A stretch of DNA of 64,000 nucleotides from Cyanidioschyzon merolae (lineage: Eukaryota): the NCBI GenBank assembly GCA_000091205.1, contig AP006496.2, one strand, 5' to 3'. The position numbers and the translations under genes were made by a program. The notes under the pieces were generated by a model that saw only the letters and a program-made list of their open reading frames with translations, did no database searches and was not told the origin of the DNA. This document shows positions 20,963-47,400 of the stretch, piece by piece (position 1 is the stretch's first letter; every line of letters starts with the position of its first letter).

Positions 20963-21599
20963 TCTTCCTGCCGGCCAAAGTGTGTGTGTGCGCTAGTGCC
21001 TGCAACGCTCCTGGTACGCCTCGGGGGAGTATAACGGAGAATTGCTCGCGGGCTGGTGACCCGGGCGACGCGATCTCCGGGAGGGGCTTGAGGCGGCGCG
21101 CGCCATTGCGCAGCGTCACGCTTTCGTCTGTTGACTGGTGTTAACGAGAAACGTCCAATAATTGTATTTAAATGTATTAAATGATACAAAAATGAAATAG
21201 AAGCGTCAGCCTCATCTGGATGTGCTCGGAGCACGGAGACGGCTGCGACGATTTTTACGGTTTGACAGATCGCTCACATTGACCATGGATCGCAGAATGC
21301 GGAGTTGATGGATATTGGCTTTCAGGAAAGCGTCCATCATGCCGCTGCACCCTATCTTCAGTTTCCATTATTCACGCTTCCTTTCGGCTGTACTGCTCGT
21401 CTAGTACGTTCTATCGTGCGCTGAGTTCCTGCTTTGAGCAGCCGCCGTAGCGCCTGTACCACTTGAGCGAATGCATCACGGAGACAGAACGGCTTTTTCC
21501 GTACCACTGAGGGCGTTGGCTCGAGGCGAGCATCATCCGGCACGGGGTCGGTGTATATCATCATTGTGGAAGCCTGCAAACTGCGCAGACAGACCAAGA

Positions 21600-24361
21600 G
21601 CTTGCGGTAATGGGAAGCGATATGCAAGGAGACCATCGCGACCAGAGCGACGCCCAGACGGTGCCTACCCGCTCCTCGTCCCAGCGTAGACTGCATTGGG
21701 GACGAGTCGCTCAGATCTCACTAAAGCACGTGCAAATGGGGCGAGCATCAAGCACGAGCGTGGGAGACTCGTCTCGCGTGCGGGACCTTCCGCACAGGCG
21801 GCAACCTTTCGACAATACGGGAAGATTTTCCCTCTTTTCATGTTTATCGTTGAGGGGGAATGAAATCGTTACATCTTTGCTATTTAATGATTAGTCTCTT
21901 TTCTTTTTTCCGTATTGTGCGGTCGATACGCGCATCTCCATATCTGGCAGGCATGAGACACGACGTGCATCTCGCTGTTGAGGGGAAACGAGATCCTGAC
22001 CTTTAGTGTGCAGCTCTAACCTACAAGTTGTATTATGGTTGAAGTCATAGCAGAGTATGCTCTCTCGATTCAATCGTGTTTCAGCCCTCAAGCAAGTACA
22101 TTCAAGTGATTTTCCACGATTTATAGCGGACGCATTCGAAATAGGATCTTTTTCAAAAATAAAAAAGAAAAGTAATCGAAATGGAAGTAGAGGATCCCGG
22201 AGGCGCGGTGTCACCTGCTGGTGGAAAAAAACGAAAAACAGAGTCAAACGTAGAGGAACAAGACATGACGAAGAAGCAGAAGAAGAAGGCCCGACGCCAA
22301 AGGCTGCGAGAAAGATGACAATACTACGAGATTGTTGTAAAAGCCTGTCTTCTTGGATAAATCAAGGATCTGTACAAGCAAAAGTTACGAGAGGCCATCA
22401 GAAACTGTGTAGATTCGTACTCCATGAGTGGTATAAAGGCTTCGTCAGGGCTAATGCATTTGGTGAAGGAGCTGTATCGGGACCTGATGGAAATCAAAAG
22501 ACGCGTGGTTCCGGAAGGTTTATTCAACAAGACCTTTTTTCGCCACCTGATTGTTGGCACAGGGGCAGCGTCGAGAAGAGATGAGGGAATGCACGCCCTC
22601 TACGAAAAATTCGCCGAATTCCGCTTCGACGGTACTCGATACATGGGTGATGCGGATATTTACGGATGCGGGGCAATGAAGTACCTCACGAATCTGAAGA
22701 ACAATATGCTCAGTATCCTCGAACGTTTCATGTTACGTTCTATCTTTGCGCTGTACCCGGGCCTGTCTCGCAATGGGATATGGGGCATCATCGAAAGTAT
22801 CACGAACAATCGCCAGCATGAAGATAGGATCCAATCCGTCGACGACAAGACATCACGCAGGAGCAGGAATGAAGCTTCTGTATTGCGTACGGCTATACAG
22901 GAGCATCGTGCGGTACGGGGACTGGCGAATCCTGCAGAAAAGGTAACGGAAATGAAAAAAGATGTTATCACCTCATCCTAAGCTATTTCGTGCTTCTGGA
23001 CCGAGAACTCGAACGCAAGGCAGAGATGGAGCTGGGCGTGAGAAAAAATGAAGAGTCGTTGGAACGGAAGGCTTTCCTGATGTGGAAGCGCTTCAACGTG
23101 GTTCCGTTGTGCAACATCAAGTCACATTTTGTGACTATCGACTCCGGAGTCGTTCATGGCATCGTAAGGGAGATCAGTCCGGAGTTCGATGTAAGCAAGA
23201 TAGAGTTCACCGATGAAACGCGGGAGACGTACTGGAAGAATATCTTCGATTTCAAACGTCTCAAAGTGAGCAAGCAAAAGCAGTTCACTGGGATGATCGA
23301 AACCGATGGAGAAGCCATCTGCGTACATCATCGGCGCTTGAAAGCAGATCGTCCAGTTCCGTCCTCGGCTTCGCCCTCGGCGAAGCATGAAGAAAAGAAG
23401 GTGGCGGATCCTGCGACACAGAAAGTGCAGGACAACGACTTTGTCGTTGGCGCGGCCCCCGGGAACTTGAATATCACAACCATTGAAGCACCCAAGTGTG
23501 CGGAACATGGTGACGACGGCAACTGACGTCAGAAGGACATGCGTCTTGTAAAGTTCTCAAGGGCGAGGTATCGCCTAGAATCGTGAATAATGAATGCAAG
23601 GAAGAAATTTGGGACTTGGAATGCAGGAGTGAAGGAGCGCCTGGAAGCTATGAGCGCGGTGACGAACCGCGGAGCGGGCTTTGACTATTTTCGGGAATTC
23701 ATGGAAGTTCGCATTGCTCATTGGGATGCGCTGTGAGGGGAGTACACCAAGTCACGATTAGCTCGTAAGTGTATGAGACTGTACTGTGGGAAGCAGCTTC
23801 GCGTCGCGAACTTCTTCAATGAATTGAGCGCCCTCAAAGAGGATGAAAGGCGGAGGCTTGTAACAGCATACGGAGCAGGACGCTAGGCTTCCAAAAAAGG
23901 AGCATACCTGTTCCATCGACAAGAGTGTACAAGGAGTGCACACATCGTTTTCTCACGATACGGGTAGATGAGTTCTGAGCGTCGTATACACACTTCGAGC
24001 TGGGGTGTATACTCCAGAGGGTCGAGATGGAAAAGTGCCAGCGGAGCTCTAAGGATGTAAAAAAGTACGGAGCGCTGAAAGAACAGGAAATGGAACGGAG
24101 GGCACAGGTTCGAGAACTCCTTGCACTGGTGGGTACAACCAACGGGGGCAAGAAACGCATGGAGTTCGAGAACGGTGACTTGTTCTCGCCGCAATCAATA
24201 GAACGAGATATGCGGTCCCGGAGAAGAGACCCGACGCGCTAACACGATCTAAAATTCGCAGGGCAGCCGTGCAGTGTCGAGGTGTACAACGAGAAACTGA
24301 AACCAGTAGCAGAGGGCCGGTCCAAAAAGACTGGAGGCGTCTGCACGTCAGTTGGAGATGT
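21600..24361 (+). mobile_element. copy 1 of the 2.3-2.8 kb repeat family (putative Fanzor/TnpB-like element), with a decayed ORF
   Basis: The 5' flank 21600-22056, the 80-bp 5' box, the ORF and the 3' terminus ...ctggaggcgtctgcacgtcagttgga are all shared with the minus-strand copies at 44569-47400 and 51339-54090. Confidence 0.6.
22181..24242 (+). pseudogene. decayed ORF of repeat copy 1, with in-frame TGA and TAA stops at positions that are sense in copy 2, plus frameshifts. The RuvC-I-like box is mutated (AAPGN)
   Basis: MEVEDPGGAVSPAGGKKRKTE... RER* ...LLG*IKD... is one frame carrying two stops. Later it gives [19 protein letters not shown] and TRVYKECTHRFLTIRVDEF*ASYTHFELGC. Confidence 0.55.
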
Positions 24362-25675
24362 ATTGTCTATGGCGGTCACTCGCCACTAATGTGCACCGGT
24401 TATGCAGCGTTTGATGATTGAACGGCATGCCTGTGCTGGTGGTGGTGGTGCTGCGATGCGCAGGACGCACAAACTCCGGCCTGCGTCGTTGCATCGCAAG
24501 GAGAAAAGATACGTCAGGGCAGGAGCAGGCGCCTACGAGTATCCCGCCTGTCATGTCTGCGCGGTGCAGGTTCATTTGGTGGCTGTGCATTGGGTGCAGC
24601 GCGATGCACGCTTCTACAATGACTTGGAACTGTGTAACGCAACGATTGGCGGTAGCGGGTTGCATCGCTGTTACTTCATGGTGCAGGTGCAGCCGCTGTA
24701 TGTATCCCGCGAACTGAGGTACCACTCTCATCGATTCATGCACAAGCGCTGCGGCCATGCACTGATGCTGCGTTATGGGCGTCGGTGAATCGGCGAACAG
24801 GCTTCTCGCTCCACGGACTAACCTTCAAAAGCTTCGATCAAAAAGCCTCTGGGAGCGGGTTTTCTCGTTGCGGACCTTAAAAGGCGATACCGTACAATTC
24901 TGTTGGCATCGTATTCGGAAATCGCAGCAGAGGAGCGCCAAGCATTCCGTGGCTGGTTTGCGAGATTCGCTGTCTGCTAGGCGAGGACTATGGACCTGAG
25001 CCACTCCCGACGCAGTGCCAGGCGAGCATGCATGCCACCCCTGGCACATCGCTATGATGCTCATATGTTCAAGGTCCAAGTATGCCCAGCCACGGCCATC
25101 GCTCCAATGCTGACTTGCTGGTGTCAACAGGACAACACCCCGTCTCCGCAAGGCTATTTCTTTATGAACCGGCCATGTCCGGAAACGTAAGCATAGCATG
25201 ACAGAATCCTGTATGATATAGGATAGAGACGATGGTTTTTAATTCTCTAATCAGCAGGAGAGAGAGCGTTGCCAGCGAGCACGCTGCGCGAACAACAGGA
25301 ACGGTTAGTGGTCGCTGCTACCTCTTGTCACGTAGATTATCACTCGATCACCCAGATGCACTTGTGAGCGTAGCGCCCATCATCCCTGAATTCCGAATCC
25401 TAGTGAAATGTTCCCCATGAGTGATAAAACTTGCCTGTGTAGACGATCCCCAAAGCGCCGGTGGTGCTGTAGCCGTCCACCTGCTGCGCCTCCGGCTTGC
25501 GCAGTCCTAACGCAGATGACGCGTACGCTGTCGTGCAGCGCCACAGTGTTACGCCTACCTGTTGCCGTTCGGGTTAGGTAGGTTTTGTTTTCGGGCGCTC
25601 CGTCTTGGTGTAAGCGGTAGTCAGAGGTGCTCGGCGCAGGAGCAGCGACAACCGAGTGTTGCGCGTGCGTTTCCC

Positions 25676-26092: not shown

Positions 26093-28838
26093 CACCGACG
26101 CTCTGCCATGAACCCTGAAATGCAGTGGAGGACGTCTATCGGGCGGTTTTGCTATTCTAGGAGCTTCACACCGCGACACAGAATTTGGCGGCAGAATAAG
26201 TGCTATACGATATGCAGCGTTTTGCGAACGACCTTGCATGTGACTTGCCGTTATCCATCAGAGCAGAGAATCCTGGAGTATCTGCACTAGAACGCTCTGT
26301 TTGTTTTTGTTGTTTTCTTGAAGGAATTCAACGACGGCGTTCATGGTGTTGATTGGAGAAGTGTTGCTGAAAGCGTCGATGTTGTCTGTGCTAGCTGGAA
26401 AATTATCTCGTTATGCATTCAGGTCAGTCGATCAACGGTCAGCTGGACGATGAGCCGCCCTTCTCGACGTGGGTAACCTGCACATCGTGCACCTAAACCA
26501 TGTTTTATCAAAATCTTTCTTTACGATCGTCTCCTCGCCAATTCGTTCCACTCCATTCGTTCTTTATCAAAAAAGACCAAAGCAGCAGGCGTTGAAGTTT
26601 GCGTATCGTTGATACGAACGGAGATGAAGACCAGGATGGGCAAAGAAAATAGCGCGTTTGTATGGGAGACCATCGCGCGTTGAATACGACGCAATCTACT
26701 TTGTGCTGAAACGCGAATGTCTATTACAAGAGCAACGGGTTTTCGCGTCACTCGAAGACATCGCATTCAGCAGAAGAGGTAGACCTTTACATAGGCTATC
26801 AAAGAGAGGAGACCATTGTTCGTCGAGAAGCGCATTGCGTGCATTCCGAAAACGTTGGACTCAGCGGCAATTCAGTCGTCTCGTCGACGACAAGTCGCAA
26901 ACGGACCGAATTTTGTAACACCCAATCCATGTCGAAGCAATTCCTGGCTTCTTTCTTCACATTCTTCCGTCCTGCTCATACACAATTCGGTTTTTCATCA
27001 TTCAAATGCAGCTAAAGAATACGCAGCTCAGATTGGCATAGATCTGCTCTTCGTGCCAGCGATTGCTCTCTGGGTCAATCCAATCGCGGGCGTTTTCTAC
27101 GTTGTCAAACGCCACGTTTGCGCCCACGGATCCATAGACGAGTCGTTGGCATCAGTGATACCGTTCTTCGAGTAAATATGCTTCGGCACGTCGTTCTGAA
27201 TCTTCACCAGTTGGCAACTGGTCCGTTGTTCGTCAGTATGAGTGCGGAAAGGAGCGAAACGACGCGTCCCGGTTCGCGGGCGTCCTCGGGACGGAGGAGG
27301 TGACGGAAAAGTAACTGGCGAATTGAAGATACATATATTGAAAAGGTGCGCAGCCGTTCCACAGTGAACCTAGTGCATATGCGTGCGGTGCGAAAAACGA
27401 ATAAGACGTGTAGCGGTCATAACCATACCAATTCGTCAGGAGGACGATAAGGAATAGAAGGAGCTGGTCTCTGCGAGCAGATATGAAGCTTTCGAACAAC
27501 TTTACGATTAGCGTTGGCGAGACTCATTTGTGGTTTTTCCTACACACTGAGAAAATAAGAAACAAATGGACATGAACGATAGAACCCGATGGAATATCAC
27601 GATTAATGCACGTTTCGAACACCAGGACAGGCTCGAGTAACCACCCCGTATTCTGAACCGTTCGTAATAGAATAAGGGAATTTGTTTGCTGAAAGGCGTC
27701 AAGGCCTTCGCCCTACCGTTAGATCACGAGGGCGGAGCCAAATACCTGAACCGTAACCAGATGACGCCGCTCAGCTCTTCATGGACTTGGTATCATCGAG
27801 AGTCGGGCTTGATGGACCCCAGGAAGCACATCGCCAACTGGAATGACGACGACACGGCCTACCTTGATGCTCTGGGCACCATGCCATGCAGGCGCGGACA
27901 CTTTGAACGCCTCGTCTGGAGAATACGTGAGAGCGCGCCTGGGCCGCCAACAGTTTCGGTTACAAGGATTCGCGACGTTTGCATTCGTCAACGTCTCTAA
28001 TGACTTGGAAAAAGAAATGACCCACTGGTTGTGTCATTTGCTCGTAGCCAATCGCGCTGGACGTGCTGTAGCGCGCAAAGGCTGCACTCCTGGGGCCCCC
28101 GCCAGCACCCGAATCGAGTGCTGGAATCTCTTCTGTACGATTCGCATCGATGCGCTCTAGATGACGTACACGTTTCAAGATTCGAGGAAGACGCTGAAGC
28201 AGGCTGAGCAGGAAAGCTTCAAACAGAGCTGAATGCACGAGATGGTGTCCTTGAAGACGAACAGACGTCAAATGAGGATACAATAGAATAAGACAGGCCT
28301 GCACGGGGGTGTGTGCGAGCACCACCAACGATGCGCGCAAGCATTTTATGCACCAAGTCTTCAGCGCCTCAATCAACATCCGAAAATATCTCGTGCTTCT
28401 GGAGCGTTCACACGCTTTAATTCAAGCAAGCCTTGGACGGAAGCGTTGAGTACTCTGAGTAGACGTTATGCGGAAACGCTGAAAACTTGTTATGAAAAAA
28501 CCAGTCGCCAGTACAGTGGCAGTTGGATGCGCACCCGAAGCAAGGCACTGGTACAGTCCGCTTCGACAAGCCAGAGGCGCTGGACCGCCGCATGCATATA
28601 CCTGGAATTTGATTCCTGGTTCATCGATAGACGATTATGGTGCTCCATGTTTCGATGTGACTTAGAAGCGGACCGGTTCAACGCATGAGTGCCAAAATCG
28701 CAGCAGTATACACCAGAATGCACTAGGATATAGCGGCAAGAAAACAACAAGGATACAGGACCTTGTCAAGAGATGGAGTGAACTATGGTCTTTTACATTT
28801 CGCCGTCGCGCTTTTTCTCGAAGAGTTTGTTTCATGGA

Positions 28839-30023
28839 TCAGGCTTTTTTCACCTTACCGCCTCGCAGCGTCTTCACCTGGGAGTAAATGGCAACTCCAG
28901 CGAGTGCGATGACAGTCCCAATGATGTTCTGTCGTGAAACGGGATTTCGGAAAAAGAGCACGGAGCTCACAATAACCGCGACACGTTTCACGGTGTTTCC
29001 GATCGAATGCGTCACCGGCGAGACGCGCTGCAAGACCACATAGGAGAACTGGTTGTAGAGGTAATGCAGGAGTCCACAGAGCGCAAGCATCCCTAGCAAT
29101 GAAAGACCTCCAATGGACGCATTCGCAGCACTCCACACACCTGCATACTTCGTGTAATCGACGACTATGGCTAATGGGATAGCTGTAATCGCAGCTAAGC
29201 AGGATATCCAGCCGAAAAGGTTGACGTCATCGAACTCCACGCCTTTCATGAATTTTTTGCTTAGGACGTTGCGGGACTGGAAGGACACGTTGCTCGCAAC
29301 TGCAGTAAGAAAACCGGGCCAGTTGAAGCTGACTTCGCTCACGGAGGCGAGAACAACACCGAATACAATTGGAACCAGCGATGCATAGATTGGCCAGGAG
29401 AAGGTAGTACCGGGAAGAAAAATTTTCGCCAGAACCACGGAGAAGAAAGGTTCGCTTGCCTTGATGACATGGGTGAAACTAACCGCCATTTGTCGCAGGG
29501 AGAAGTTCGTGAAGAGGTTTCCAAAGAGATGCGCTAATGCCAGCGGATAGATTTTCCGCAAGTCGGCGGGTGTCGCGCGTTGAAACCGATGCATGCGCGT
29601 GCCCCACAGAAAAAGCGAAATAGTTGCCCCGGCGAGCATTTGTACGGCGGTGACACTCACGAAGAGCGGGAATGACTTCATCAGCGTCTTGTTGACGATG
29701 TTAAAACCAATGTTTGCAGCATACCAACAGGCGATGTATGCTCCTAGGGCCAGACGGCGCCCAAGTGAGGCGCTGAGATCAGTCGGCGCACTCGTGCCGC
29801 TCGCCGCTGGCTCTGATGCCGTCATCTGCAGCGTTGCGGGCGAGCAATGCTGAGTATGACGTTCAATCACGTGGGTCTTGGTCTTTCCAGGAAAAAGACT
29901 ACAGCGCTTGTACTGAATCGACTGCCAGCGCCTCGTGCTCGCTGGTGCCGTGTTCGAGCGAAAGGCTGCACCCGATAGCCGCCAGCACGGCGCAGGCGAC
30001 GTCATCACAAATGCTGGCTCCAT
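28839..30023 (-). CDS. plastidic phosphate translocator of the TPT/PPT/GPT family (DMT superfamily), with an N-terminal transit peptide
   Basis: 394 aa. The mature part carries the pPT family pattern [25 protein letters not shown] (here YIACWYAANIGFNIVNKTLMKSFPLFVSV) and shows collinearity with TPT TM helices. Confidence 0.85.
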   Translation of the reverse strand: MEPAFVMTSPAPCWRLSGAAFRSNTAPASTRRWQSIQYKRCSLFPGKTKTHVIERHTQHCSPATLQMTASEPAASGTSAPTDLSASLGRRLALGAYIACWYAANIGFNIVNKTLMKSFPLFVSVTAVQMLAGATISLFLWGTRMHRFQRATPADLRKIYPLALAHLFGNLFTNFSLRQMAVSFTHVIKASEPFFSVVLAKIFLPGTTFSWPIYASLVPIVFGVVLASVSEVSFNWPGFLTAVASNVSFQSRNVLSKKFMKGVEFDDVNLFGWISCLAAITAIPLAIVVDYTKYAGVWSAANASIGGLSLLGMLALCGLLHYLYNQFSYVVLQRVSPVTHSIGNTVKRVAVIVSSVLFFRNPVSRQNIIGTVIALAGVAIYSQVKTLRGGKVKKA

Positions 30024-30933: not shown

Positions 30934-32129
30934 CACCCATATCAGACGAAACGGGAAGGCCTACAAACAGATGACTCGAGCGTCCGTTCAAAAGTTCGGG
31001 TCTATTGCCAATGCCATCCAACATGGGCCTCCGCGTGCCTTTGAGCTGCCTGCTGTTTTCGCTCTCTCTTACCTTCGGATTTACATGCGCCTGTCGCTCA
31101 TGAACCTCTCCCAGCTGCGATGTCAGCCGTCGACAGATGTCGACGGGAGCGTTCAAGTCCCGACTGCGCCGTTCCCGGCAGTTGTCGACGCATTTCGTGC
31201 ACGAGCGGAAGTTGCAATGCACAACCCGTCTGCCGTTTTTCATCCTCTCTGTACTCGGACGCAGACTGCCCGTCACCACGATGACATTTGATCGCACTCA
31301 GGTGTTTTCGCAGGTTAAGAACACGTGCCTCTCTGAACGCCGCTCTGTGGCGCGTGAACGCTTGCCTCAGTGCTCGGTAGACGCCCTTGGCGGGTGCAGG
31401 AGGCTCCACTCGATGCACTCTTCCATATCCCCGCCCAGTGCCGTACATCTGAATCACGGGCTTGTTCTGGGCGGTGCCTTTGGTATCTACGTTGTTCGCT
31501 GTATGTGCACGCGCACGGTGCTCGCTCCAATAAAGGACTTGCGGGACGCCTTCTTGCCCATATGAAACAAGTGCCAGAGGGAAGTCCGGCCAGACGAAGA
31601 ATTCGCGGCGGTGCGATTCGCCCACGCGCGCGTCTTGCACAGCGCTGACGCGTTCTCCAGTGGAGGCGCTCGCTGCGATAACTAGGGTCCGAGTCCAGTA
31701 CACGGTGCTGTGTAGGCACAGGAGCCGCGATGCTCTGTGAGCGTACTCCCTGAGAGGCAACATGCTGCTGCTGAATGCCGCTGGGTCGATGGCCACGAAC
31801 CAAAGAGCATCTGCCTTCGGAACCAGGTCAATGATCTCCGGCGACAAGCACAGTGAGCTTTAGGCATCGTGCTGTGAGCAAGATGTCGAAAGCAGACTTT
31901 GAGCGTTTCTCGGCGTCCATAAAGCAGCGCAGGCCTCTGCGCCAACGTGTTGCCTTGAAACAGAAATGCAGGATAGCTGACGCATATGTGATTTGAGCAT
32001 TCTGCACATAAGGAAAGGAGAAGTGTGCAGGCGTGAATGTAGGTATTGGATCATGGTATTGGTTTTGCTACAAACCGCTGTCCCATGATGTCGCGAGTCG
32101 CCTAGAGTCCGGTGAGCCACCGAATACCA
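30934..32129. repeat. left arm of a large inverted repeat. It is 1196 bp and about 98-99% identical to the reverse complement of 35270..36464
   Basis: Read directly. Identity begins at cacccatatcagacgaaacggg (the reverse complement of 36443-36464) and ends at ...ggtgagccaccgaatacca (the reverse complement of 35270-35290). All ORFs in one arm reappear on the opposite strand of the other arm. Confidence 0.95.
31098..31847 (-). CDS. hypothetical 249-codon ORF carried by the left inverted-repeat arm. Its function is unknown and the track ORF begins at a TTG
   Basis: It has mixed amino-acid composition and is intact in both arms with only 3-4 aa differences (for example FSSSMLPLREY versus FNSSMSPVREY). 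In both arms a same-frame ORF lies immediately upstream, separated by one stop codon. The true start is unresolved. Confidence 0.35.
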   Translation of the reverse strand: MSPEIIDLVPKADALWFVAIDPAAFSSSMLPLREYAHRASRLLCLHSTVYWTRTLVIAASASTGERVSAVQDARVGESHRREFFVWPDFPLALVSYGQEGVPQVLYWSEHRARAHTANNVDTKGTAQNKPVIQMYGTGRGYGRVHRVEPPAPAKGVYRALRQAFTRHRAAFREARVLNLRKHLSAIKCHRGDGQSASEYREDEKRQTGCALQLPLVHEMRRQLPGTAQSGLERSRRHLSTADIAAGRGS

Positions 32130-33029
32130 ATTTCAAACAAAAAAAAACACGCGAAGAAGCTACTCCTAAAACACGACCGAGACTCCCGGAATTCTGCATG
32201 CATCTGCAGGCCCTCCATACTGCACTTTAAATACCAATGCGGTGCACCCAAGAAATGTTAAGAAAAAATCGAAAGGCAGGAACAGATCGAGCAGATCAGT
32301 GTTCTATCCATATCTGAAACGGGTGTCGCGCATACGCTGCGTGCGATGGGCTCGGCACCGGCGAAGCGTCTCGTCGCCCGTCTCAGACAACAGCTTTTGA
32401 GACAACATTGTACCAGGGCGCACCGCCAGCTGCTAGAACGCATCCGCATCGATCATCGCCTGCGCCGCGCTCCGCGGGCGCTTCACACCGGGCAGCGTCG
32501 CAGGCCGTCGACACCACCTCTTTTCTGAGACAAAAAGGACACAGATCCATCGACCGGCGATCGCCGCATGGCTTCGCCAGCCGGCATGCCTGCATGGTGG
32601 CGCTCAGCGCGTTTTCCGCAGCCGCACCCGGACGCTGCGCCGTTCAGATTGAGACGATTTGAATCCGGGTCTGCGCGCGCGGCAGTTCGTGCGCGCGCAC
32701 CCTCCTCAGAGCGCGCAAACGTGTTGTTTGGTGTCTTTGACCCAGAGGCTAACCTAACGAGGTTTCCGCAAGGCGTCTACGTACGTACTAGATAGAAACT
32801 TTCAAGGACGACTTTACCGCCTTGATATCTTAGTGGATTCAGCGCATAGAACAAGTGTTTCTCTCTCGAACCGAGGAGTCGCGCCACCGAAACCTGACGA
32901 GTCCGTTATCCGGTTCGCGCCGCCACGTTTTACCCGCTGCTTAGCTCAGGTCGGCAAAACACCAGGGAACTGAAGTGAAGTTCATAGTTTTCACTGTTTC
33001 GTGAGTATTTTAATTGGAAAGGTCATCAA

Positions 33030-33311
33030 ATGGTTGGTAATAATACGGAAGCAGGAATGGCGAAGTTTCTGGAGTTAAAGGCAGCTTTCGAGGACGTGTA
33101 TGAGGACACGACAAAGTTTTTCGAGAAAGGGAACAAGGCCGCAGCCGTTCGTGCTCGTAAGAAGCTTTTAAGGTTGCGAGAAATTGCACAAGAAATGCGT
33201 GTTCTCATTCAGCAGACGAAGGCGCAGCTAGAGCAGGAGCACAAAACCGCTCGAACCAGCGGCGGGGGTGGCGGTTTGGGCGCAGACAACCAAGTGTCCA
33301 TGGGAGAGTGA
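33030..33311 (+). CDS. small basic coiled-coil protein (93 aa) with a KGNKAAAVRARKKLL core resembling the N-terminal domain of bacterial histone-H1-like Hc1 (chlamydial HctA). It lies in the spacer of the inverted repeat
   Basis: MAKFLELKAAFEDVYEDTTKFFEKGNKAAAVRARKKLLRLREIAQEMRVLIQQTKAQLEQ, compared with Chlamydia Hc1 ...LLKAEKGNKAAAQRVRTESIKLEKIAKVYRKE (recalled from memory). It ends in a Gly-rich tail. Confidence 0.35.
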   Translation: MVGNNTEAGMAKFLELKAAFEDVYEDTTKFFEKGNKAAAVRARKKLLRLREIAQEMRVLIQQTKAQLEQEHKTARTSGGGGGLGADNQVSMGE

Positions 33312-35269
33312 GCTTTCCTTCACCGGAGCGCTGCTAAGCCACGATGGCTTTTTCGTGCTGTATTTGTTGAATCGGTAAGCGTTCAGGCTCTTGAGGTCCG
33401 CGCCCTTGAACTATTTGCTCCTGTATGACCGCAACTCGTACTGGTTTTGTTTTCTGGACATCGTCCTGAGCCTTCCCACGGTTCGTCGCCTGTTTCGGCC
33501 GCCACAGCTGATACTTTGCAGGCCACGTGCAGGGTCTCCAGAGGCAGGCCGAAGTTTTCTCCGTACGCGGAGGGTTCGTGGCGGATCGATGAGTCCGTCA
33601 GGTTTCTCTAATTCCGAAACTATGCATAGAATCGACGTTCTCTGTGATGAAAGATAGTTTGAGCCAAAGATATTGCAGCAACGAATTGTGAGCCGCTTGC
33701 ATCGGACTCAACGTGACTAGCAGCCGTACCAGAGGAAGTAAAGATCCCGAATGGTTCCTAAATAGTTCTCTCGTGTCATGGTTGGAACTCCCGGTCAAAT
33801 GAATGGTCAGGGGATTTTCTGGAATGTGTTCCACGACGAATACTGGGGCTCGTTTTGATTGTATTCCATTTTGCGGCCTGAGGGTTTCCGAATGAAGGGT
33901 TTCCAATTCTGATTAATTTATGCTGCGAAGATCGGACACTCTTGCTGATAGAAGCTGCTGACGCCCGTAAGGAATGCCCCACACGAGAGCAAACTTGCCA
34001 ACGGCTCTTCGATACCAGCACGCTCTTCGTTAGAGCGAAGCCGTTCACCCTAGAGCCACAGGTGCGTCGAGAGGACTTAGAGTTCCCGGTTAGTTTTGGA
34101 CGTGCCTGTTACTCGTTGTTTTGGCCGCCAGTCGTGTCGGATAAGGCGACTCGACCTGACACGGAGCGGGCTCTTGACATATAAAAGAAGAGGCGGCGCG
34201 GCAAGGGATCCAACGGGAAGCAGGGAGGGAACGTGTCCGTCTGTTCCATCACGGACCTGATCAGTGATCCTGCAGCTAAGTCTTTCGATTGGGGAGGGTC
34301 TGCACCAATGTATACCTTTGAACAGAGGGATCCAGAGCGATCGAGGCCGTTCGCCTCGCACAAGGCACGAGGCGTCGTTTACAGAGCGACGCCCCTTTCA
34401 TGAGGCGTACCCGGCGTGCTCGCTGCTGCCTTACCGAGCGGAACGTTATCCCTGGCGTCTGATGAGAACACTTTCCCGCTATATTCTACAGAACCGCTTT
34501 CGGCTCCTGGGCTCAAGACAGCTCTTGTCCTCTACATCCAGCGCGTTGCAGCGCATGAATCTACAGTGAGTCTGCTGCATATCCTGCACGTTTGCGAACC
34601 AAGCTGAGCACAGCTCGTGCACTCCTATGCAAAAATGGCTACTCTTTTGATCTTCAGCATGTTGCAGCATTCGAATCGGAACAGCGACCCGTTACCGAAC
34701 ATGTCTCCAGTTTTTGGACGTCGCTGCGGAAAGGAAATGCACCAGCCGATGATGCAGAGTGTACAGATCCGTATCATCCTGATGGTGACGCTGCTGGCTT
34801 GGATTCGTTCAAACTATCGGGACACTGGGTCGGAGCCTCGCTATCACTTTAAATGCAATCCGCGTGAGCCTCGAGTGTACCTGTTGATGGAGGAATTTCG
34901 AATCTTTGGAAACTGGAGCGCTTGGTGCCCACGGCGCTGCATTTACCCCACTCGTCCCGTGGAGAGAAGCTCGCTCTGACTTCTATCCTGGTTGTCCAAC
35001 TGGTGCATTCTATAGCCGGATCGGGCCATGGACGAACGATTGGGCATTCAGCGACCGCCTGAGACACGTCGCATCTACGTACTGTACTTGCGTGCGATGA
35101 AAATGGAACACTGATCTGCTCGCTCTGTTCCTGTCTTTCTATTTTTGCTATACTTTTTTAGACTTGCAACCTCGGCATTTGAAGTGCAGCAATACGCGCA
35201 GACGAAGTCAGACGTCGTTTCAGTATCGTCGGCAGTATTTTTGGAATGCCTCCCTCGGCACTCTGGCGC

Positions 35270-36464
35270 TGGTATTCGGTGGCTCACCGGACTCTAGGCG
35301 ACTCGCGACATCATGGGACAGCGGTTTGTAGCAAAACCAATACCATGATCCAATACCTACATTCACGCCTGCACACTTCTCCTTTCCTTATGTGCAGAAT
35401 GCTCAAATCACATATGCGTCAGCTATCCTGCATTTCTGTTTCAAGGCAACACGTTGGCGCAGAGGCCTGCGCTGCTTTATGGACGCCGAGAAACGCTCAA
35501 AGTCTGCTTTCGACATCTTGCTCACAGCACGATGCCTAAAGCTCACTGTGCTTGTCACCTGAGATCATTGACCTGGTTCCGAAGGCAGATGCTCTTTGGT
35601 TCGTGGCCATCGACCCAGCGGCATTCAACAGCAGCATGTCGCCTGTCAGGGAGTACGCTCACAGAGCATCGCGGCTCCTGTGCCTACACAGCACCGTGTA
35701 CTGGACTCGGACCCTAGTTATCGCAGCGAGCGCCTCCACTGGAGAACGCGTCAGCGCTGTGCAAGACGCGCGCGTGGGCGAATCGCACCGCCGCGAATTC
35801 TTCGTCTGGCCGGACTTCCCTCTGGCACTTGTTTCATATGGGCAAGAAGGCGTCCCGCAAGTCCTTTATTGGAGCGAGCACCGTGCGCGTGCACATACAG
35901 CGAACAACGTAGATACCAAAGGCACCGCCCAGAACAAGCCCGTGATTCAGATGTACGGCACTGGGCGGGGATATGGAAGAGTGCATCGAGTGGAGCCTCC
36001 TGCACCCGCCAAGGGCGTCTACCGAGCACTGAGGCAAGCGTTCACGCGCCACAGAGCGGCGTTCAGAGAGGCACGTGTTCTTAACCTGCGAAAACACCTG
36101 AGTGCGATCAAATGTCATCGTGGTGACGGGCAGTCTGCGTCCGAGTACAGAGAGGATGAAAAACGGCAGACGGGTTGTGCATTGCAACTTCCGCTCGTGC
36201 ACGAAATGCGTCGACAACTGCCGGGAACGGCGCAGTCGGGACTTGAACGCTCCCGTCGACATCTGTCGACGGCTGACATCGCAGCTGGGAGAGGTTCATG
36301 AGCGACAGGCGCATGTAAATCCGAAGGTAAGAGAGAGCGAAAACAGCAGGCAGCTCAAAGGCACGCGGAGGCCCATGTTGGAAGGCATTGGCAATAGACC
36401 CGAACTTTTGAACGGACGCTCGAGTCATCTGTTTGTAGGCCTTCCCGTTTCGTCTGATATGGGT
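35270..36464. repeat. right arm of the large inverted repeat (1195 bp)
   Basis: See the left arm at 30934..32129. The spacer between the arms runs 32130..35269 (3140 bp). Confidence 0.95.
35552..36301 (+). CDS. second copy of the 249-codon hypothetical ORF, in the right inverted-repeat arm
   Basis: It is 98-99% identical to 31098..31847(-). Confidence 0.35.
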   Translation: MSPEIIDLVPKADALWFVAIDPAAFNSSMSPVREYAHRASRLLCLHSTVYWTRTLVIAASASTGERVSAVQDARVGESHRREFFVWPDFPLALVSYGQEGVPQVLYWSEHRARAHTANNVDTKGTAQNKPVIQMYGTGRGYGRVHRVEPPAPAKGVYRALRQAFTRHRAAFREARVLNLRKHLSAIKCHRGDGQSASEYREDEKRQTGCALQLPLVHEMRRQLPGTAQSGLERSRRHLSTADIAAGRGS

Positions 36465-36727
36465 GTAGGTATGCAACGCATCCGCGTGCTTGCGAACGTG
36501 CGTCGATTATGTACATAACTGGACACTACTGGCCACTTGCTCTGATCGTCGCCGCGGGGAGCTGGCGCACGGCCTCGGGGCCTGCCCTCGGCACCGGCCC
36601 CGCAGCCGATGCCGGTACGCGCCGTGGGCCGTGCCAATCCAGAATCGTATCCACGACACTAGTGCTTACGATTCGGTGTGAAGCACAGTTTTCGCAAGCC
36701 ACAGTTGTTCACTTTTGCGCTATCAAC

Positions 36728-38125
36728 ATGGTTAACTCTGTGTATAGAGAGTGCTATGATGACAGTCACTATCGACCGGAGTTTGAGGGGTTCATTGGGA
36801 ACCGTCCTCTGGAAGAAGTAGATCCCGAGGTTGTGACGCTCATCCGGGCCGAGAAACAACGTCAGGCCGGCGGTTTGGAACTGATAGCCTCCGAGAACTT
36901 TACCTCAAGGGCCGTTATGGAAGCACTTGGATCATGTTTCACAAATAAATACTCGGAAGGGTATCCTGGAAAGCGATACTATGGTGGCACGGAGGTTGTT
37001 GATGAATTGGAGCGCCTGGTGCAGCAACGTGCGCTGAGCCTCTTTGGGCTCGACCCACAAGAGTGGGCGGTTAATGTCCAACCGTACTCTGGGTCGCCGG
37101 CCAACTTTGCAGTGTACACCGCGTTACTAAAGCCGCATGATCGAATCATGGGCCTGGGGTTACCCTCGGGTGGGCACTTGACGCACGGCTTTTACACTGC
37201 GAAAGGAAAGCGGATCTCCGCAACCTCGATATACTTCGAGTCCCTTCCGTACCAGGTCCATCCTCAGACAGGTTATGTTGACTACGATCGTCTAGAAGAG
37301 CTGGCACTGCTGTACCGCCCTCGACTCATTATCTGTGGGGCGTCGGCGTACGCACGCGACTGGGACTATGCGCGGATGCGCGAGATCGCCGACAAGGCCG
37401 GCGCGATGCTCATGTGCGACATGGCGCACTACTCGGGTCTCGTCGCTGCAGGGGAGCTCACTTCGCCGTTTCCGTTCTGCGATGTTGTAACGACAACTAC
37501 GCACAAGTCGCTGCGCGGGCCAAGACAGGGCATGATTTTCTGTCGCCGTCAGTACGAAGCGGATATAAATGAGGCGGTCTTCCCGGGGTGTCAGGGAGGC
37601 CCTCACAATGCAACAATGGCAGCGCTTGGTGTTGCTTTGAAAGAAGCGATGACGCCTGAGTTTCGCGCCTATCAGCAGCAGGTTCGCGCAAATGCGAAAG
37701 CACTCGCCGGGGCATTGCAGGCCCGGGGCTATACAATCGTCACCGGTGGTACGGATAACCACCTAGTGCTTTGGGACCTGAGGCCAGAGGGCCTCACGGG
37801 TAACAAAGTTCAGAAGCTCTGCGATCAAATCAACATAACCCTGAATATGAACGCGGTTCCTGGTGATACGAACGCACTCTCTCCTGGCGGCGTGCGTCTA
37901 GGCACGCCTGCGCTCACTAGCCGTGGTTTCAGGGAAAAGGACTTTGAGCAGGTGGCTGAGTTTCTCCACCAGGCCGTCCAACTTTGTCTCAAAATCCAAA
38001 AGGATTCCGGAAAGAAGCTTGCAGATTTCGAGCGTGCCCTTGAAGGTCGTCCTGAGCTCGCAACGCTGCGCGACCAAGTGCGGGCCTTTGCCTTGCGGTT
38101 TCCAATGCCCGGCGGGCCGCGTTAA
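36728..38125 (+). CDS. SHMT: serine hydroxymethyltransferase (glycine hydroxymethyltransferase). It is probably cytosolic because there is no leader after Met-74 of the track ORF
   Basis: [12 protein letters not shown]...[107 protein letters not shown]...A....[13 protein letters not shown]. The PLP-lysine context is [12 protein letters not shown]. The 73 codons before Met-74 lie inside the inverted-repeat arm and are discounted. Confidence 0.9.
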
Positions 38126-44498: not shown

Positions 44499-44568
44499 AC
44501 CAACAACGCCGTTCTACGTCGACCGACGTCAGTGTACAGTAGTGGCGAGAAACTCGCCCTGGCCAAGA

Positions 44569-47400
44569 AGTCTGCAACTGACGTGCAGACGCCTCCCTGT
44601 CTTTCTGGGCCGGCCACCGACTACATCTTACATATTCTTCTCATATAGTTCCACTTTGAGAGGTTGTCCAACAAAGTTCGTTCTTGGCGTCTCTGGAGGT
44701 CTCTTCTCCAGCACCGCACATCTCCATATATTTAATGGCGGCATTAAAATCTCGGTTCACGACTTCCATCCGTTTCTTGCCATTGATTGTACTCACTAGT
44801 TTAAGTAGCCCTCACACTTTTGCCCTCCTTTCCATTTGCTCTTCCGTCAGCGGTCCGTACTTTGCTATTTCCTCAGGACTCCGCTGCCACTTTTCCATCT
44901 CCACTCTCTGAAGTGTACTACCCAGGTCATGGTGTGTATACGACGTTCGAAACTCATCTACAGGTATCATAACAAAATGCCGTGCAAACTCCTTGTACGC
45001 CCTCGTCGTTGGAGCTGGCGTGGTCCCATTTTTCGACGCCGAACGCCCTGCCCCATAAGCCGCAACCAGCCTTTGACTTTCATCCTCCTTCAAGTCGCTC
45101 AAATGATTGGAAAAGTTGGCAAATGCCCGCTGCTTCCCACAATACAAATTCATACACAAAACGGGTCCACTGGAGCTTGGTATATTCATTCCACAGCGCA
45201 TCCCAATGAGCAATGCGAACTTCCATGAATTTCCGAAAAGCTTGAAAGTCCGCTCTGCGGCTCGTCACCTCGCCCATAGCTTCCAGGTGATCCATCATTC
45301 CTGCATTCCATGCAGCAATTTTCTTCCTCGCATTCATTATACCGACTTCTCGATAGAATCTTGCTCTTGAGAACCTCAACAGACGCATGGCTTTCTGACG
45401 TAATTTACCATCAGCACCATCTTCCACACGCTTGGGTACCGCAATGGTGATGACATTCGTATTCCCAGGGTCCGCGTCAACGACAGAGTCGCTCTCATGC
45501 ACTTTCTGTTCCGAAAGACCCGCCTCCTTCTCATCTTCTTGCTTCGCCACGGGCGAAGCCGAGGTCGGAAATGGCCGATCTGTCTTCAAACGCCGATAGT
45601 GTACACACATGGCTACTCCATCAGTTTCGCTCATCCCAGTGAATACATTTTGCTTGCTCACTTTGAGACGTTTGAAATCAAAGATATTCTTCCAGCACGT
45701 CTCCCGGTTCTCGCCGGTGAACTCTGTCATCCTTACATTGAACTCCGGACAGGTTTCTCTCATTATGCTGTACAGGACTCTGGAGTCGATTGGCATAAAA
45801 TGCGACTTGATCTCGCACCTCGGAACGACGTTGAAGCACTTCCCCATCCGGGCAGCTATCCGTTCCAACAACGCTTCATTTTCCCCACTCAGCTGCCTTT
45901 CGGCCTTGCGTTCGAGTTCCCGGTCCAAAAACACAAAATAGCGCAGGAAGAACGGATAACATTTTTCTTATCTTTTTTCGTAGCTGATACCTTTTCCGCT
46001 GTATTCGCCAGCCCCAAGACTGCACGGCGCTCTTGAACAGCGGCACAGATCACAGAAGCTTCATTCTTTCTCCTGCGTAATGTCCTCTTGTCGAAGAATT
46101 CGATCTCCCGTTCATGGAAGCGATCGTTCTTGATGCCATTGATGATGGCCCATATCCCTTTGCGAGATAGGCCCGGGCAGAGTGCAATCACGGCGCTTAT
46201 CATGAAACGTTCGAGATTCAAAGTCAAATGTTCGTTCAGGTTCTTGACGCACTTGATCGCCCCCTATGCGCAAATATCCGTGTTATACTTCTAGCGAGTA
46301 CCGTTGAGGCGGTAGTTGGGGTATTTTTCGTGGAGGGCATGCGCTCGATCGTTTCTCCTCGACGTTTCCCCAGTGCCGAACATCAAGTGACGAATAAAGG
46401 ACTTGTTGAAAAACTCTCCCAGAACGCCGACTATTTTGACGTCCTTCATATCGCGATACATCTTCCTCACCAAATGCATCAGTGCTAAAGAAGCGATGTG
46501 AACACTCATGGGGTAAGACTCGACACGGTTTCTCATCGCTTCTCGCAACTTTTGCTGGCAGGGATCCTTGATATGGCCGAGAAGACAGGATTTCACCACC
46601 ATAACGTCGTATGATCGTCTTTCTTGCAACCTGTGACGTAGGGCCTCCTGCCATGGCTTCTCCGCCTTGTCTCGTTCCTCTTTGCTTGGCTCTGTTTTTC
46701 GTTTCTTTCCGCCAGCCAGCGTTACTGGCGCTTCAGGATCCTCCATTTCCATTTCCATAACTTATCTTCTCTTTATTTTTGAAGACGAACGCACATGGAA
46801 GGGTTTTGCTGTAAACCGCGAAAAATCAATTGAATTAACTTACTTGAGGGTTTAAACACGACTGAATTGAAAGACTATAGTTTGCTCTGACTTTTACGCA
46901 TATACAACTGGGCCGTTAGAACAACAAGTCAACGAGTGATCATGATAGCGTCGCTCTTCTCAACGGTAACATGCGCGTCGTGCTCGTGACTGCCAGATCA
47001 CGAGGTGCGCTGACCGACCGCACTATATACCACGATAAACAGAGACCAGCTACTAACTAGCACCGAGATAACAATTTCTTTGCCCTCTACGATAAACGCT
47101 GAACGGAGAAAAGGTTTCCATCTATCGAAAGTTTACCTTCAAGGCAGAGGGTCTTGGGATCAGGGTGTCTGCCGGGCTTGCGCTCCGTGCAACTCTGCAG
47201 TGGCGAGTGGCGTGACGCGACCTGAGCTGCTCGTCCCCAACGTAGTTTATTCTTGTAGAACGGGCAGATAGGCTGCGTCTGGGCGTCACACTGGTCACGC
47301 TGGACTCCTTGTAAATCGCTTCCCGCTGCCGCAGGCAGTACGCCTGTCTGCGCAACTTGCTGGTTCCCAGAGTGCTTATGAATCGCGACCCCGTGTCGAG
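44569..47400 (-). mobile_element. copy 2 of the repeat family (putative Fanzor/TnpB-like element). It is the most intact copy and retains the D-A-D-P-G-N box
   Basis: The 3' terminus (on + coordinates 44569-44800) tctgcaactgacgtgcagacgcctccctgtctttct...ttccactttgagaggttgtccaacaaa matches 51339-51470 and the reverse complement of 24250-24361. The 5' box lies at 46780-46880. The 5' flank to about 47400 matches 53600-54090. Confidence 0.6.
44812..46758 (-). pseudogene. ORF of repeat copy 2, split into four frame-shifted pieces (46291..46758, 45889..46227, 45080..45934, 44812..45213). It is a putative TnpB/Fanzor-like RuvC nuclease with a degenerate zinc finger
   Basis: The N-terminal basic stretch GGKKRKTEPSKEERDK looks like an [25 protein letters not shown] is RuvC-I-like (compare TnpB vGIDlGiknlatlsdG). 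RLLRFSRARFYREVGIMNARKKIAAWNAGMMDHLEAM resembles the TnpB helical bundle (l.r..rkk.ks.nrkKar.kiaklh.kianqRkD). TTRAYKEFARHFVMIPVDEFRTSYTHHDLG aligns with TnpB l.YKAe..G..V..VdP.YTSQ.Cs.CG, but both Cys pairs are lost. Confidence 0.45.

What the first reader, a model, noticed from the sequence alone, without database searches (positions are those of the whole stretch)
30934..36464. 5.5-kb palindromic structure with 1.2-kb near-identical inverted arms, each carrying an intact 249-codon ORF, around a 3.1-kb unique spacer
The arms 30934-32129 and 35270-36464 are reverse complements at about 98-99% identity. The ORF 31098..31847(-) = 35552..36301(+) is open in both arms with 3-4 amino-acid differences. 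In both arms a same-frame ORF lies immediately upstream, separated by a single stop. There is no obvious target-site duplication at the outer boundaries (ggacattg versus taggtatg). The structure could be a recent inverted duplication or a conversion-maintained palindrome. It could also be a foldback or long-TIR DNA element whose arms encode an unknown protein. The outer end of the right arm lies only about 260 bp from the SHMT start codon, so it probably overlaps that promoter
Basis: seen in the sequence. Interest (0 to 1): 0.6.

Follow-up and report, generated by a model that had tools for sequence, protein, structure and literature searches.

The report
Inverted pair of dead transposon copies
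The 5.5-kb "palindrome" is two inverted copies of a dead, internally deleted Mariner/IS630-Fanzor transposon on either side of a resident small red-alga gene; gene conversion keeps the copies near-identical and the 249-codon ORF is a pseudogene, so the structure is real but ordinary.

Summary
Arms 30934-32129 and 35270-36465 are 1,196 nt, ungapped, with 6 mismatches (99.5%). Both outer junctions also occur in independent metagenome assemblies, so this is not an assembly artefact.

The window is Cyanidioschyzon merolae or a very close relative. Each arm is most of a ~1.36-kb non-autonomous transposon relic (right copy 35105-36465). It consists of the N-terminal two-thirds of an IS630/Tc1-mariner DDE_3 transposase fused to the C-terminal RuvC/zinc-finger part of a Fanzor1 (TnpB-like) nuclease.

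The 249-aa ORF is a chimeric pseudo-ORF. Essential catalytic parts are deleted or substituted, and the ancestral frame shifts at about 36161-36168. All other strains have a stop at codon 204. Between-strain changes look neutral (3 synonymous, 7 non-synonymous, 1 nonsense).

The copies are old: the left copy's inner 177 nt are only 59% identical to the right copy. The rest was homogenised by gene conversion. Strain-specific alleles are shared by both arms, and the converted tract is 1,196 nt here but 1,361 nt in another strain.

The central Hc1-like gene is a host gene. Cyanidiococcus has the same TPT-Hc1-SHMT order with no repeats. Contigs show the central segment in both orientations, but short reads cannot settle that. 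Low-to-moderate interest.

The parts
35105..36465 (+). Right copy of the ~1.36-kb non-autonomous Mariner/IS630-Fanzor1 relic. 35270-36465 is the near-identical arm and 35105-35269 is its 5' segment.
   Evidence: Inverted repeat. In another strain the repeat runs from ~35105. Transposase and Fanzor homology span 35183-36356.
30934..32306 (-). Left copy of the same relic. 30934-32129 is the near-identical arm. 32130-32306 is a homologous 5' segment only 59% identical to the right copy.
   Evidence: alignment score 30 versus -25 +/- 6 for shuffles.
35183..35821 (+). Transposase-derived part of the right copy (DDE_3 residues 8-212, read through one stop at 35540-35542). It includes 'VAIDPAAF', the first Asp of the DDE triad. 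The mirror match in the left copy is 31578-32054 (-).
   Evidence: tblastn/blastp with the 317-aa DDE_3 protein of the intact element: E = 6e-12 / 1e-12. That protein matches PF13358 at E = 1.6e-25.
35861..36356 (+). Fanzor1-derived part of the right copy. Frame 2 runs to 36160 ('KPVIQMYGTGRGYG...LRKHLSAIKCHRGD'). After a frameshift, frame 3 covers 36168-36356 ('CTKC...RSRDLNAPVDI', second zinc-finger half plus RuvC-III). The mirror region in the left copy is 31043-31538 (-).
   Evidence: tblastn with P0143/P0144/P0082/P0003 (E to 1e-16). blastp places Fanzor residues 508-617 (E = 3e-16).
35552..36301 (+). The 249-codon ORF of the finding (mirror 31098-31847 -). It is a chimeric pseudo-ORF: tail of the transposase remnant, then Fanzor RuvC-II region, then about 45 out-of-frame codons.
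   Evidence: K204 is a stop in all 14 other contigs. Between-strain changes are 3 syn: 7 non: 1 stop. No Pfam match.
36444..36465 (+). 3' terminus of the transposon family, CCCGTTTCGTCTGATATGGGTG, followed by TA(G). The mirror terminus at 30934-30955 (-) is followed by CA.
   Evidence: Similar termini occur in the 6-kb relic (...GACATGGATG|TA) and in the intact element (...ACATAGGTG|TA). The motif has 3 hits in the window versus 0 expected.
32308..32322 (-). Third terminus-like motif, CCGTTTCAGATATGG, directly abutting the 5' end of the left copy. It may be a remnant of another copy's 3' end.
   Evidence: 0 expected by chance. No further DNA similarity nearby.
32307..35104 (.). Unique 2.8-kb central segment between the two copies. 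It has no homology to the relic family.
33030..33311 (+). Resident host gene for a 93-aa Hc1-like (PF07432) protein. It is 100% identical to C. merolae 10D BAM81398.1/XP_005537434.1.
   Evidence: Pfam E = 2.8e-15. Identity and orthologues. Invariant in 8 contigs. Syntenic in Cyanidiococcus and Cyanidium.
28839..30023 (-). Flanking gene: plastid-type triose-phosphate/phosphate translocator. Its start lies 911 nt from the left copy's terminus.
   Evidence: PF03151, E = 6e-93.
36728..38125 (+). Flanking gene: serine hydroxymethyltransferase (465 aa). Its start lies 263 nt from the right copy's terminus.
   Evidence: PF00464. Exact 465-aa product found in independent contigs.

Best explanation
Two copies of an old, dead, non-autonomous DNA transposon sit in opposite orientation in the two intergenic regions on either side of a resident Hc1-like gene of Cyanidioschyzon merolae. 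Their 3' termini face outward. The transposon is a ~1.36-kb internal-deletion derivative of a Mariner/IS630-type element that originally carried a DDE_3 transposase and a Fanzor1 (TnpB-like) nuclease. The deletion fused transposase residues ~1-212 to Fanzor residues ~508-end (shown). Neither activity can survive. The second Asp and the Glu of the DDE triad are deleted, and so is the RuvC-I region. The conserved RuvC-II Glu is Lys, the first CxxC is CxxG, and the frame shifts before the second zinc-finger half and RuvC-III (shown). Intrachromosomal gene conversion between the inverted copies then homogenised 1,196 nt in this strain and the whole 1,361 nt in another strain. This produced the near-perfect 'palindrome' (inferred from allele patterns). 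The same homology could mediate crossover that inverts the 2.8-kb central segment (suggested, not shown). The structure has no demonstrated function. It is a by-product of transposon insertion followed by concerted evolution.
For: Transposon origin of the arms:
- The arm ORF matches 76 proteins in an exhaustive search. Long intact ones (P0143-P0149, P0021) are Fanzor1 by profile-profile comparison with the published Fanzor1 set: 99.6% probability, E = 5e-24, 470 columns.
- In contigs they always follow a DDE_3 transposase gene. The 3,477-8-bp unit is 100% identical in at least 7 contexts.
- The arm aligns to DDE_3 residues 8-212 (E = 1e-12) and then Fanzor residues 508-617 (E = 3e-16), followed by a frame switch.
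- Five other relic ORFs carry a similar transposase-to-Fanzor fusion, with junction points that vary somewhat.
- The arms' outer edge equals the family's 3' terminus.

Pseudogene status:
- Codon 204 is a stop in all 14 other contigs.
- Between-strain changes are 3 syn: 7 non: 1 stop, against 9: 2 in SHMT.

Concerted evolution:
- Position 892 is A in both window arms and T in all others.
- Position 1177, 20 nt from the outer edge, is C/C in the window and A at both the TPT- and SHMT-attached arms of another strain.
- The inner 177 nt are 59% identical here but identical in strain B.

Later insertion: Cyanidiococcus and a related lineage have TPT(-)-Hc1(+)-SHMT(+) with no inverted repeat and no relic homology.
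Against: - No 5' TIR was found, and both copies begin at the same point (~35105/32306). This fits one insertion plus an ancient inverted duplication as well as it fits two insertions.
- The left outer flank is CA rather than TA.
- The arm translation has no direct Pfam hit. Its assignment rests on transitive homology through metagenomic intermediates.
- The structure model of the intact Fanzor was too poor to test the fold (pLDDT 51).
- How conversion could start between copies that were already strongly diverged is not explained. The diverged 177 nt might instead come from a third copy.
Confidence: 0.85

Rival explanations
1. A single recent inverted segmental duplication of 1.2 kb, with no ongoing exchange. 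The arms are similar simply because they are young.
For: 99.5% identity and sharp boundaries. Both copies start at the same internal point of the element.
Against: The inverted pair with the same outer junctions exists in at least three diverged strains. Alleles that distinguish strains are shared by both arms (positions 892 and 1177). Beyond the inner edge the copies remain homologous at 59%, and another strain is identical there. A single young duplication cannot produce that.
Confidence: 0.08
2. One mobile unit: a foldback, long-TIR or composite transposon of 5.5 kb that carries the Hc1-like gene as cargo.
For: Two transposon 3' termini face outward and would form a perfect TIR pair. Intact relatives are active Mariner/IS630-type elements.
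Against: Hc1 lies between TPT and SHMT in Cyanidiococcus and the L029 lineage without any repeat or relic, and next to TPT in Cyanidium. There is no TSD (CA versus TA). No second context for the whole unit was found. All well-supported flanks are TPT or SHMT; the other joins (L010-L013) look chimeric.
Confidence: 0.03
3. The arms are kept alike because each encodes a functional 249-aa protein or a functional RNA (for example an omega-RNA-like transcript).
For: The ORF is open in both arms of this strain. Fanzor elements encode a guide RNA at their 3' end (PMC10530073).
Against: Every other strain has a premature stop, substitutions look neutral, and the ORF is chimeric and frameshifted. There are no Rfam or tRNA hits. 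The 3' 266 nt fold no better than shuffles (z = -0.33).
Confidence: 0.02
4. Assembly artefact: a collapsed or mis-joined repeat in the source assembly.
For: Some metagenome contigs around this locus are clearly chimeric (L010 hairpin; L011-L013 left parts).
Against: Both outer junctions, the right inner junction and the whole window-like path recur in independent assemblies from different projects.
Confidence: 0.01

Closest known systems
Fanzor1 in Tc/mariner-type elements (Bao & Jurka 2013, PMC3627910; Jiang et al. 2023, PMC10530073)
   Same: The intact relatives have the same architecture: a DDE transposase gene followed by a Fanzor1 gene, short imperfect TIRs, and TA at both ends. The Fanzor part is homologous to the published Fanzor1 set.
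   Different: The copies here are ~1.36-kb internal-deletion derivatives. They lack most catalytic parts, have no detectable 5' TIR, and are not mobile or functional units.
CMe-1A, the only Fanzor1 family Bao & Jurka 2013 (PMC3627910) list for C. merolae
   Same: Same host, and also an old, decayed Fanzor1-bearing repeat family. Three full-length CMe-1A copies lie in this window.
   Different: The arms have no DNA or protein similarity to CMe-1A or CMe-1. The arm family is transposase-associated, whereas CMe-1A has no transposase or TIRs. The arms therefore belong to a second Fanzor1-related family in this genome.
Conversion-maintained inverted repeats (plastid-genome inverted repeats, human Y-chromosome palindromes, inverted IS/TE pairs)
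   Same: Arm-to-arm identity is far above that of the unconverted adjacent homologous sequence. Strain-specific alleles are shared by both arms. There is potential for flip-flop inversion of the spacer.
   Different: The arms here carry no functional genes, the scale is small (1.2-1.36 kb arms, 2.8-3.1 kb spacer), and flip-flop is not demonstrated.
Bacterial composite transposons (Tn5/Tn10-like: two inverted IS copies around cargo)
   Same: Two inverted copies of an IS630/mariner-related element bracket a small gene, with equivalent termini facing outward.
   Different: The bracketed gene is ancestral at this locus. There is no TSD, the copies are dead, and there is no evidence that the unit ever moved.

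Membership tests
Fanzor1 / TnpB-like RNA-guided nuclease | Sequence homology to the Fanzor1 RuvC-containing C-terminal half | tested here: met
   Arm versus intact relatives: E to 1e-16. Intact relatives versus published Fanzor1 alignment: hhalign 99.6%, E = 5e-24. Pfam PF07282 hits on the relatives are only sub-threshold.
Fanzor1 / TnpB-like RNA-guided nuclease | RuvC-I Asp ('GxDPG' region) | tested here: not met
   Arm homology starts at Fanzor residue ~508. The RuvC-I motif (residues ~431-437 of P0143) lies in the deleted part.
Fanzor1 / TnpB-like RNA-guided nuclease | Conserved Glu before the zinc finger ('WEHxTT' / 'DEFRTS') and first CxxC | tested here: not met
   The arm has 'RKHLSAIKCHRGD': Glu is replaced by Lys and CxxC by CxxG.
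Fanzor1 / TnpB-like RNA-guided nuclease | Second CxxC and RuvC-III Asp ('RDFNAA') in the same reading frame | tested here: not met
   'CTKC...RSRDLNAPVDI' is present only in frame 3, after a frameshift at ~36161-36168.
Fanzor1 / TnpB-like RNA-guided nuclease | Structured guide (omega) RNA at the 3' end of the element | tested here: inconclusive
   The 3' 266 nt fold with z = -0.33 versus shuffles. No Rfam hit. No set of related copies was available for a covariation test.
IS630 / Tc1-mariner (DDE_3) transposon | Homology to a DDE_3 transposase | tested here: met
   Met through an intermediate only. The 317-aa protein of the intact element matches PF13358 at E = 1.6e-25 and matches the arm at E = 1e-12. 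The arm translation alone has no Pfam hit.
IS630 / Tc1-mariner (DDE_3) transposon | Complete DDE catalytic triad | tested here: not met
   Only residues 8-212 of 317 are represented. The first Asp ('VAIDPAAF' versus 'VAIDETGF') is present. The second Asp and the Glu lie in the deleted part.
IS630 / Tc1-mariner (DDE_3) transposon | Terminal inverted repeats at both ends of each copy | tested here: not met
   The 3' terminus is defined. Its reverse complement does not occur at or near either copy's 5' end (only three hits, all in 3' orientation).
IS630 / Tc1-mariner (DDE_3) transposon | TA target-site duplication | tested here: inconclusive
   The right copy, the 6-kb relic and the intact element are followed by TA. 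The left copy is followed by CA. The 5' sides are undefined.
CMe-1A (published C. merolae Fanzor1 element) | DNA or protein similarity to the CMe-1A consensus / CMe-1 protein | tested here: not met
   blastn and tblastn find three full copies elsewhere in the window but nothing in the arms.
Conversion-maintained inverted repeat | Alleles that differ between strains are shared by both arms within a strain | tested here: met
   Position 892: A/A in the window, T in all 14 others. Position 1177: C/C in the window, A at both TPT- and SHMT-attached arms in L007, L008, L011, L013.
Conversion-maintained inverted repeat | Step change in identity at the tract edge, with homologous but diverged sequence beyond it | tested here: met
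   99.5% over 1,196 nt, then 59% over the next 165-177 nt. Another strain is identical over all 1,361 nt.
Conversion-maintained inverted repeat | Both orientations of the spacer present (flip-flop isomers) | tested here: inconclusive
   Window-like: L006, L007, L008. Flipped: L009, L033, L036, L011, L013. All are short-read assemblies that cannot phase a 1.2-1.36-kb repeat.
Composite / foldback transposon carrying cargo | Cargo absent from the orthologous site in relatives; unit flanked by a TSD; unit present elsewhere | tested here: not met
   Hc1 is present at the same site without repeats in Cyanidiococcus and the L029 lineage. There is no TSD. All well-supported contexts have the TPT or SHMT flank; other joins look chimeric.

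The most novel reading that the evidence does not exclude
The inverted relic pair may act as a natural recombination switch. Crossover between the 1.2-1.36-kb copies would flip the 2.8-kb segment carrying the Hc1-like chromatin/nucleoid-type gene, and both orientations would then persist in natural Cyanidioschyzon populations. Contigs that cross the repeat from the SHMT side are split 3:3, and both TPT-side contigs are flipped. If real, this would be a documented TE-mediated inversion polymorphism in a very compact eukaryotic genome. It might change how Hc1, TPT and SHMT share their upstream regions.
Probability: 0.25. Interest if true: 0.45.

Novelty: new member of a known kind. Interest (0 to 1): 0.3.

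Why it matters
The main value is in cleaning up the annotation. The intact-looking duplicated 249-codon ORF should not be annotated as a gene, and the palindrome is not a new kind of mobile element.

Two modest positives remain. First, C. merolae appears to hold relics of a second Fanzor1-related family, associated with a Mariner/IS630 transposase. Bao & Jurka list only CMe-1A for this species. Intact, apparently active relatives of the second family exist in environmental metagenomes. Second, the locus is a compact, well-delimited example of concerted evolution between inverted transposon copies. The conversion tracts differ between strains, and the locus may carry an inversion polymorphism. 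Because C. merolae recombines homologous DNA efficiently, it could serve as a natural reporter for intrachromosomal recombination.

Tried and rejected
- tRNA and Rfam scans of the window found nothing.
- Pfam on the arm ORFs found nothing.
- The word-indexed protein search with the ORF found only the same-species fragment. Only the exhaustive search found relatives.
- Exact-product look-ups for TPT, PIP5K and the junction ORF found nothing.
- The AlphaFold model of P0143 from an 8-sequence alignment was too poor to use (pLDDT 51), so no fold search was run.
- PDB sequence and profile searches found nothing.
- My first reading of 'AIDPAAF' as RuvC-I came from a MAFFT over-alignment. It was corrected to the first DDE Asp of the transposase.
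- I first read Cyanidium synteny (Hc1 and TPT co-directional) as showing that the flipped contigs are ancestral. The closer outgroup Cyanidiococcus shows that the window's orientation is ancestral for the clade.
- A third tandem relic next to the left copy is not supported beyond a 15-nt terminus motif.
- The alternative contexts in L010-L013 (hairpin, unrelated left parts) were rejected as chimeras. They are mutually unrelated and all break next to the GC-rich palindrome at 32669-32720.
- The composite-transposon and functional-ORF readings were rejected as described under rival explanations.
- The metagenome scan with the exact terminus returned only SHMT-side junctions, because the other strain carries a variant inside the pattern on the TPT side.

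Full report
**Observation.** The inverted repeat is real. The arms are 30934-32129 and 35270-36465: 1,196 nt, ungapped, 6 mismatches (99.5%), sharp boundaries and a 3,140-nt spacer. The 249-codon ORF is open in both arms. It starts at TTG and has 3 amino-acid differences and 2 synonymous differences between arms. A same-frame ORF lies upstream, separated by one stop. There is no target-site duplication at the outer edges. The right arm ends 263 nt before the SHMT start at 36728. tRNA and Rfam scans of the window are empty.

**Organism.** The window is intron-poor and eukaryotic, with genes on both strands and about 53% GC. It holds three full-length copies of CMe-1A, the Fanzor1 element of Cyanidioschyzon merolae published by Bao & Jurka 2013 (PMC3627910). 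They lie at 21263-24412 (+), 44532-47659 (-) and 51291-54366 (-), and are 77-83% identical to the consensus from that paper's supplement. The 93-aa Hc1-like protein encoded in the spacer is 100% identical to BAM81398.1/XP_005537434.1 of C. merolae 10D. The window is therefore C. merolae or a very close relative.

**What the arms are.**
- The word-indexed protein search found only a same-species fragment. An exhaustive HMMER search then found 76 related proteins.
- The long, intact ones (P0143-P0149, P0021; 710-860 aa) are Fanzor1 proteins. A profile-profile comparison with published Fanzor1 sequences (CMe-1, CRe-1, CRe-4, VCa-1, CVu-1) gives 99.6% probability, E = 5e-24 and 470 aligned columns. 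The 'WEHxTT' and 'RDFNAAINI' motifs align.
- In metagenome contigs these proteins always follow a 317-aa DDE_3 transposase gene (PF13358, E = 1.6e-25).
- The 3,477-8-bp unit is 100% identical in at least 7 different contexts. Its ends are TACAATC... and ...ATAGGTGTA. This is the Mariner-type Fanzor1 architecture described in PMC3627910 and PMC10530073.
- Read in frame 2 from 35183, the arm aligns first to transposase residues 8-212 (E = 1e-12) and then to Fanzor residues 508-617 (E = 3e-16). After a frameshift at about 36161-36168 it continues in frame 3 through 'CTKC...RSRDLNAPVDI'.
- Each arm is therefore an internal-deletion derivative of such an element.
- Five other independent relic ORFs carry a similar transposase-to-Fanzor fusion. 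The deletion derivative was therefore probably a non-autonomous family in its own right.
- The arms have no similarity to CMe-1A. They represent a second Fanzor1-related family in this genome.

**The ORF is a pseudogene.**
- The second Asp and the Glu of the DDE triad are deleted, and so is the RuvC-I region.
- The conserved Glu before the zinc finger is Lys, and the first CxxC is CxxG.
- The last ~45 codons of the 249-aa ORF are out of the ancestral frame.
- All 14 arm sequences from other strains have T at 36161, which makes codon 204 a stop.
- Between-strain changes in the ORF are 3 synonymous, 7 non-synonymous and 1 nonsense. SHMT has 9:2, and the Hc1-like gene has no changes at all.
- The 3' end folds no better than shuffled sequence (z = -0.33).

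**True extent and age of the copies.** In another strain (L006, L009) the inverted repeat runs the full 1,361 nt, from about 35105. In the window, the left copy's inner 177 nt (32130-32306) align to the right copy at only 59% identity. That is still well above shuffled controls (score 30 versus -25 +/- 6). The outer edge of the arms is the genuine 3' terminus of the family. Compare ...GATATGGGTG|TA (right copy)...GACATGGATG|TA (relic at ~6.9 kb) and ...ACATAGGTG|TA (intact element).

**Concerted evolution.** Position 892 of the arm is A in both window arms and T in all other contigs. Position 1177 lies 20 nt from the outer edge, so it is reliably linked to the flank. It is C at both window arms, but A at both the TPT-attached arms (L011, L013) and the SHMT-attached arms (L007, L008) of another strain. 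Differences between arms, in contrast, are private to a strain. These patterns, together with the strain-specific tract length, indicate recurrent gene conversion rather than a single young duplication.

**Origin.** Cyanidiococcus yangmingshanensis (L028) and a related lineage (L029-L032) have the same order and orientation: TPT(-), Hc1(+), SHMT(+), PIP5K(-). Their intergenic regions are shorter, there is no inverted repeat, and there is no relic homology. Only the coding regions are conserved, at 72-83%. In Cyanidium caldarium, Hc1 lies 717 nt upstream of TPT. Hc1 is thus a resident host gene, and the transposon copies arrived later in the Cyanidioschyzon lineage. The composite-transposon reading is rejected. 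It remains open whether there were two insertions or one insertion plus an ancient inverted duplication. Both copies start at the same internal point, no 5' TIR was found, and the left outer flank is CA rather than TA.

**Inversion.** Contigs that cross the whole repeat from the SHMT side are window-like in L006, L007 and L008 and flipped in L009, L033 and L036. The two contigs that cross from the TPT side (L011, L013) are flipped. Short-read assemblers cannot phase a 1.2-1.36-kb repeat, and several contigs here are chimeric. Inversion polymorphism is therefore plausible but unproven.

**Verdict.** This is a real structure with an ordinary explanation: two inverted relics of a dead Mariner/IS630-Fanzor1 deletion derivative, homogenised by gene conversion around a resident gene. 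It is a new member of a known kind. Interest is low to moderate.

Noticed in passing
window 21263-24412 (+), 44532-47659 (-), 51291-54366 (-); fragments 1703-1872 and 2009-2240: Three full-length, decayed copies of CMe-1A, the published C. merolae Fanzor1 element, at 77-83% identity to the consensus, plus fragments. This 64-kb window is unusually transposon-rich for this genome (~150 copies reported genome-wide).
   Followed up: partly
window 6107-6274 (-) and 6275-6888 (+): A second, older relic of the same family as the palindrome arms. Two 5'-truncated Fanzor fragments meet head-to-head at 6274|6275. The plus-strand fragment ends in the family terminus ...GACATGGATG|TA. There is no DNA-level inverted repeat between them.
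   Followed up: partly
window 26978-27154 (+) and 27746-28229 (+): A weak DDE_3 C-terminal match (E = 8e-5) is followed by a Fanzor-like stretch that is 33-35% identical to CMe-1 (E = 1e-12). This may be a third type of Mariner-Fanzor relic, just beyond the 3' end of the TPT gene.
   Followed up: no
window 32308-32322 (-): A 15-nt copy of the transposon 3'-terminus motif (CCGTTTCAGATATGG) directly abuts the 5' end of the left copy. There are 3 hits in the window against 0 expected. It may be the remnant of a tandem third copy, but nothing else nearby is similar.
   Followed up: partly
window 35628, 35640, 35645 (right arm): Three of the six arm-to-arm differences lie within 18 nt. Two are private to the window's right arm and the third is shared only with L012. 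Either a clustered mutation or a short patch copied from another family member could explain this.
   Followed up: no
window 32669-32720; loci L010-L013: A GC-rich palindrome (GCGCGCGC-type) in the spacer coincides with breakpoints of several metagenome contigs. L010 is a perfect hairpin contig centred at 32689. L011-L013 join three unrelated sequences at 32762-32799. These are probably assembly or amplification chimeras.
   Followed up: partly
loci L019-L026 (metagenome contigs, GC ~43%): An apparently active 3,477-8-bp DDE_3 + Fanzor1 transposon is 100% identical in at least 7 contexts. The 5' flank is always C|TA and the 3' flank is TA|G in 4 of 7 copies, a CTAG-like target. The neighbouring genes resemble a giant virus or a protist (Ank, Lipase_3, DNA_pol_A, Skp1). 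L019 holds two convergent copies of related elements.
   Followed up: partly
window 33030-33311 (+); L027, L028, L029: The small Hc1-like (PF07432, bacterial 'histone H1-like') protein is conserved across Cyanidiales (Cyanidioschyzon, Cyanidiococcus, Cyanidium) and is invariant among Cyanidioschyzon strains. Its role in a red alga is unknown.
   Followed up: partly
locus L036 1279-1467 and 1468-1656: One metagenome contig carries a 189-nt tandem duplication of arm positions 36080-36268. It could be a real variant or a misassembly.
   Followed up: no
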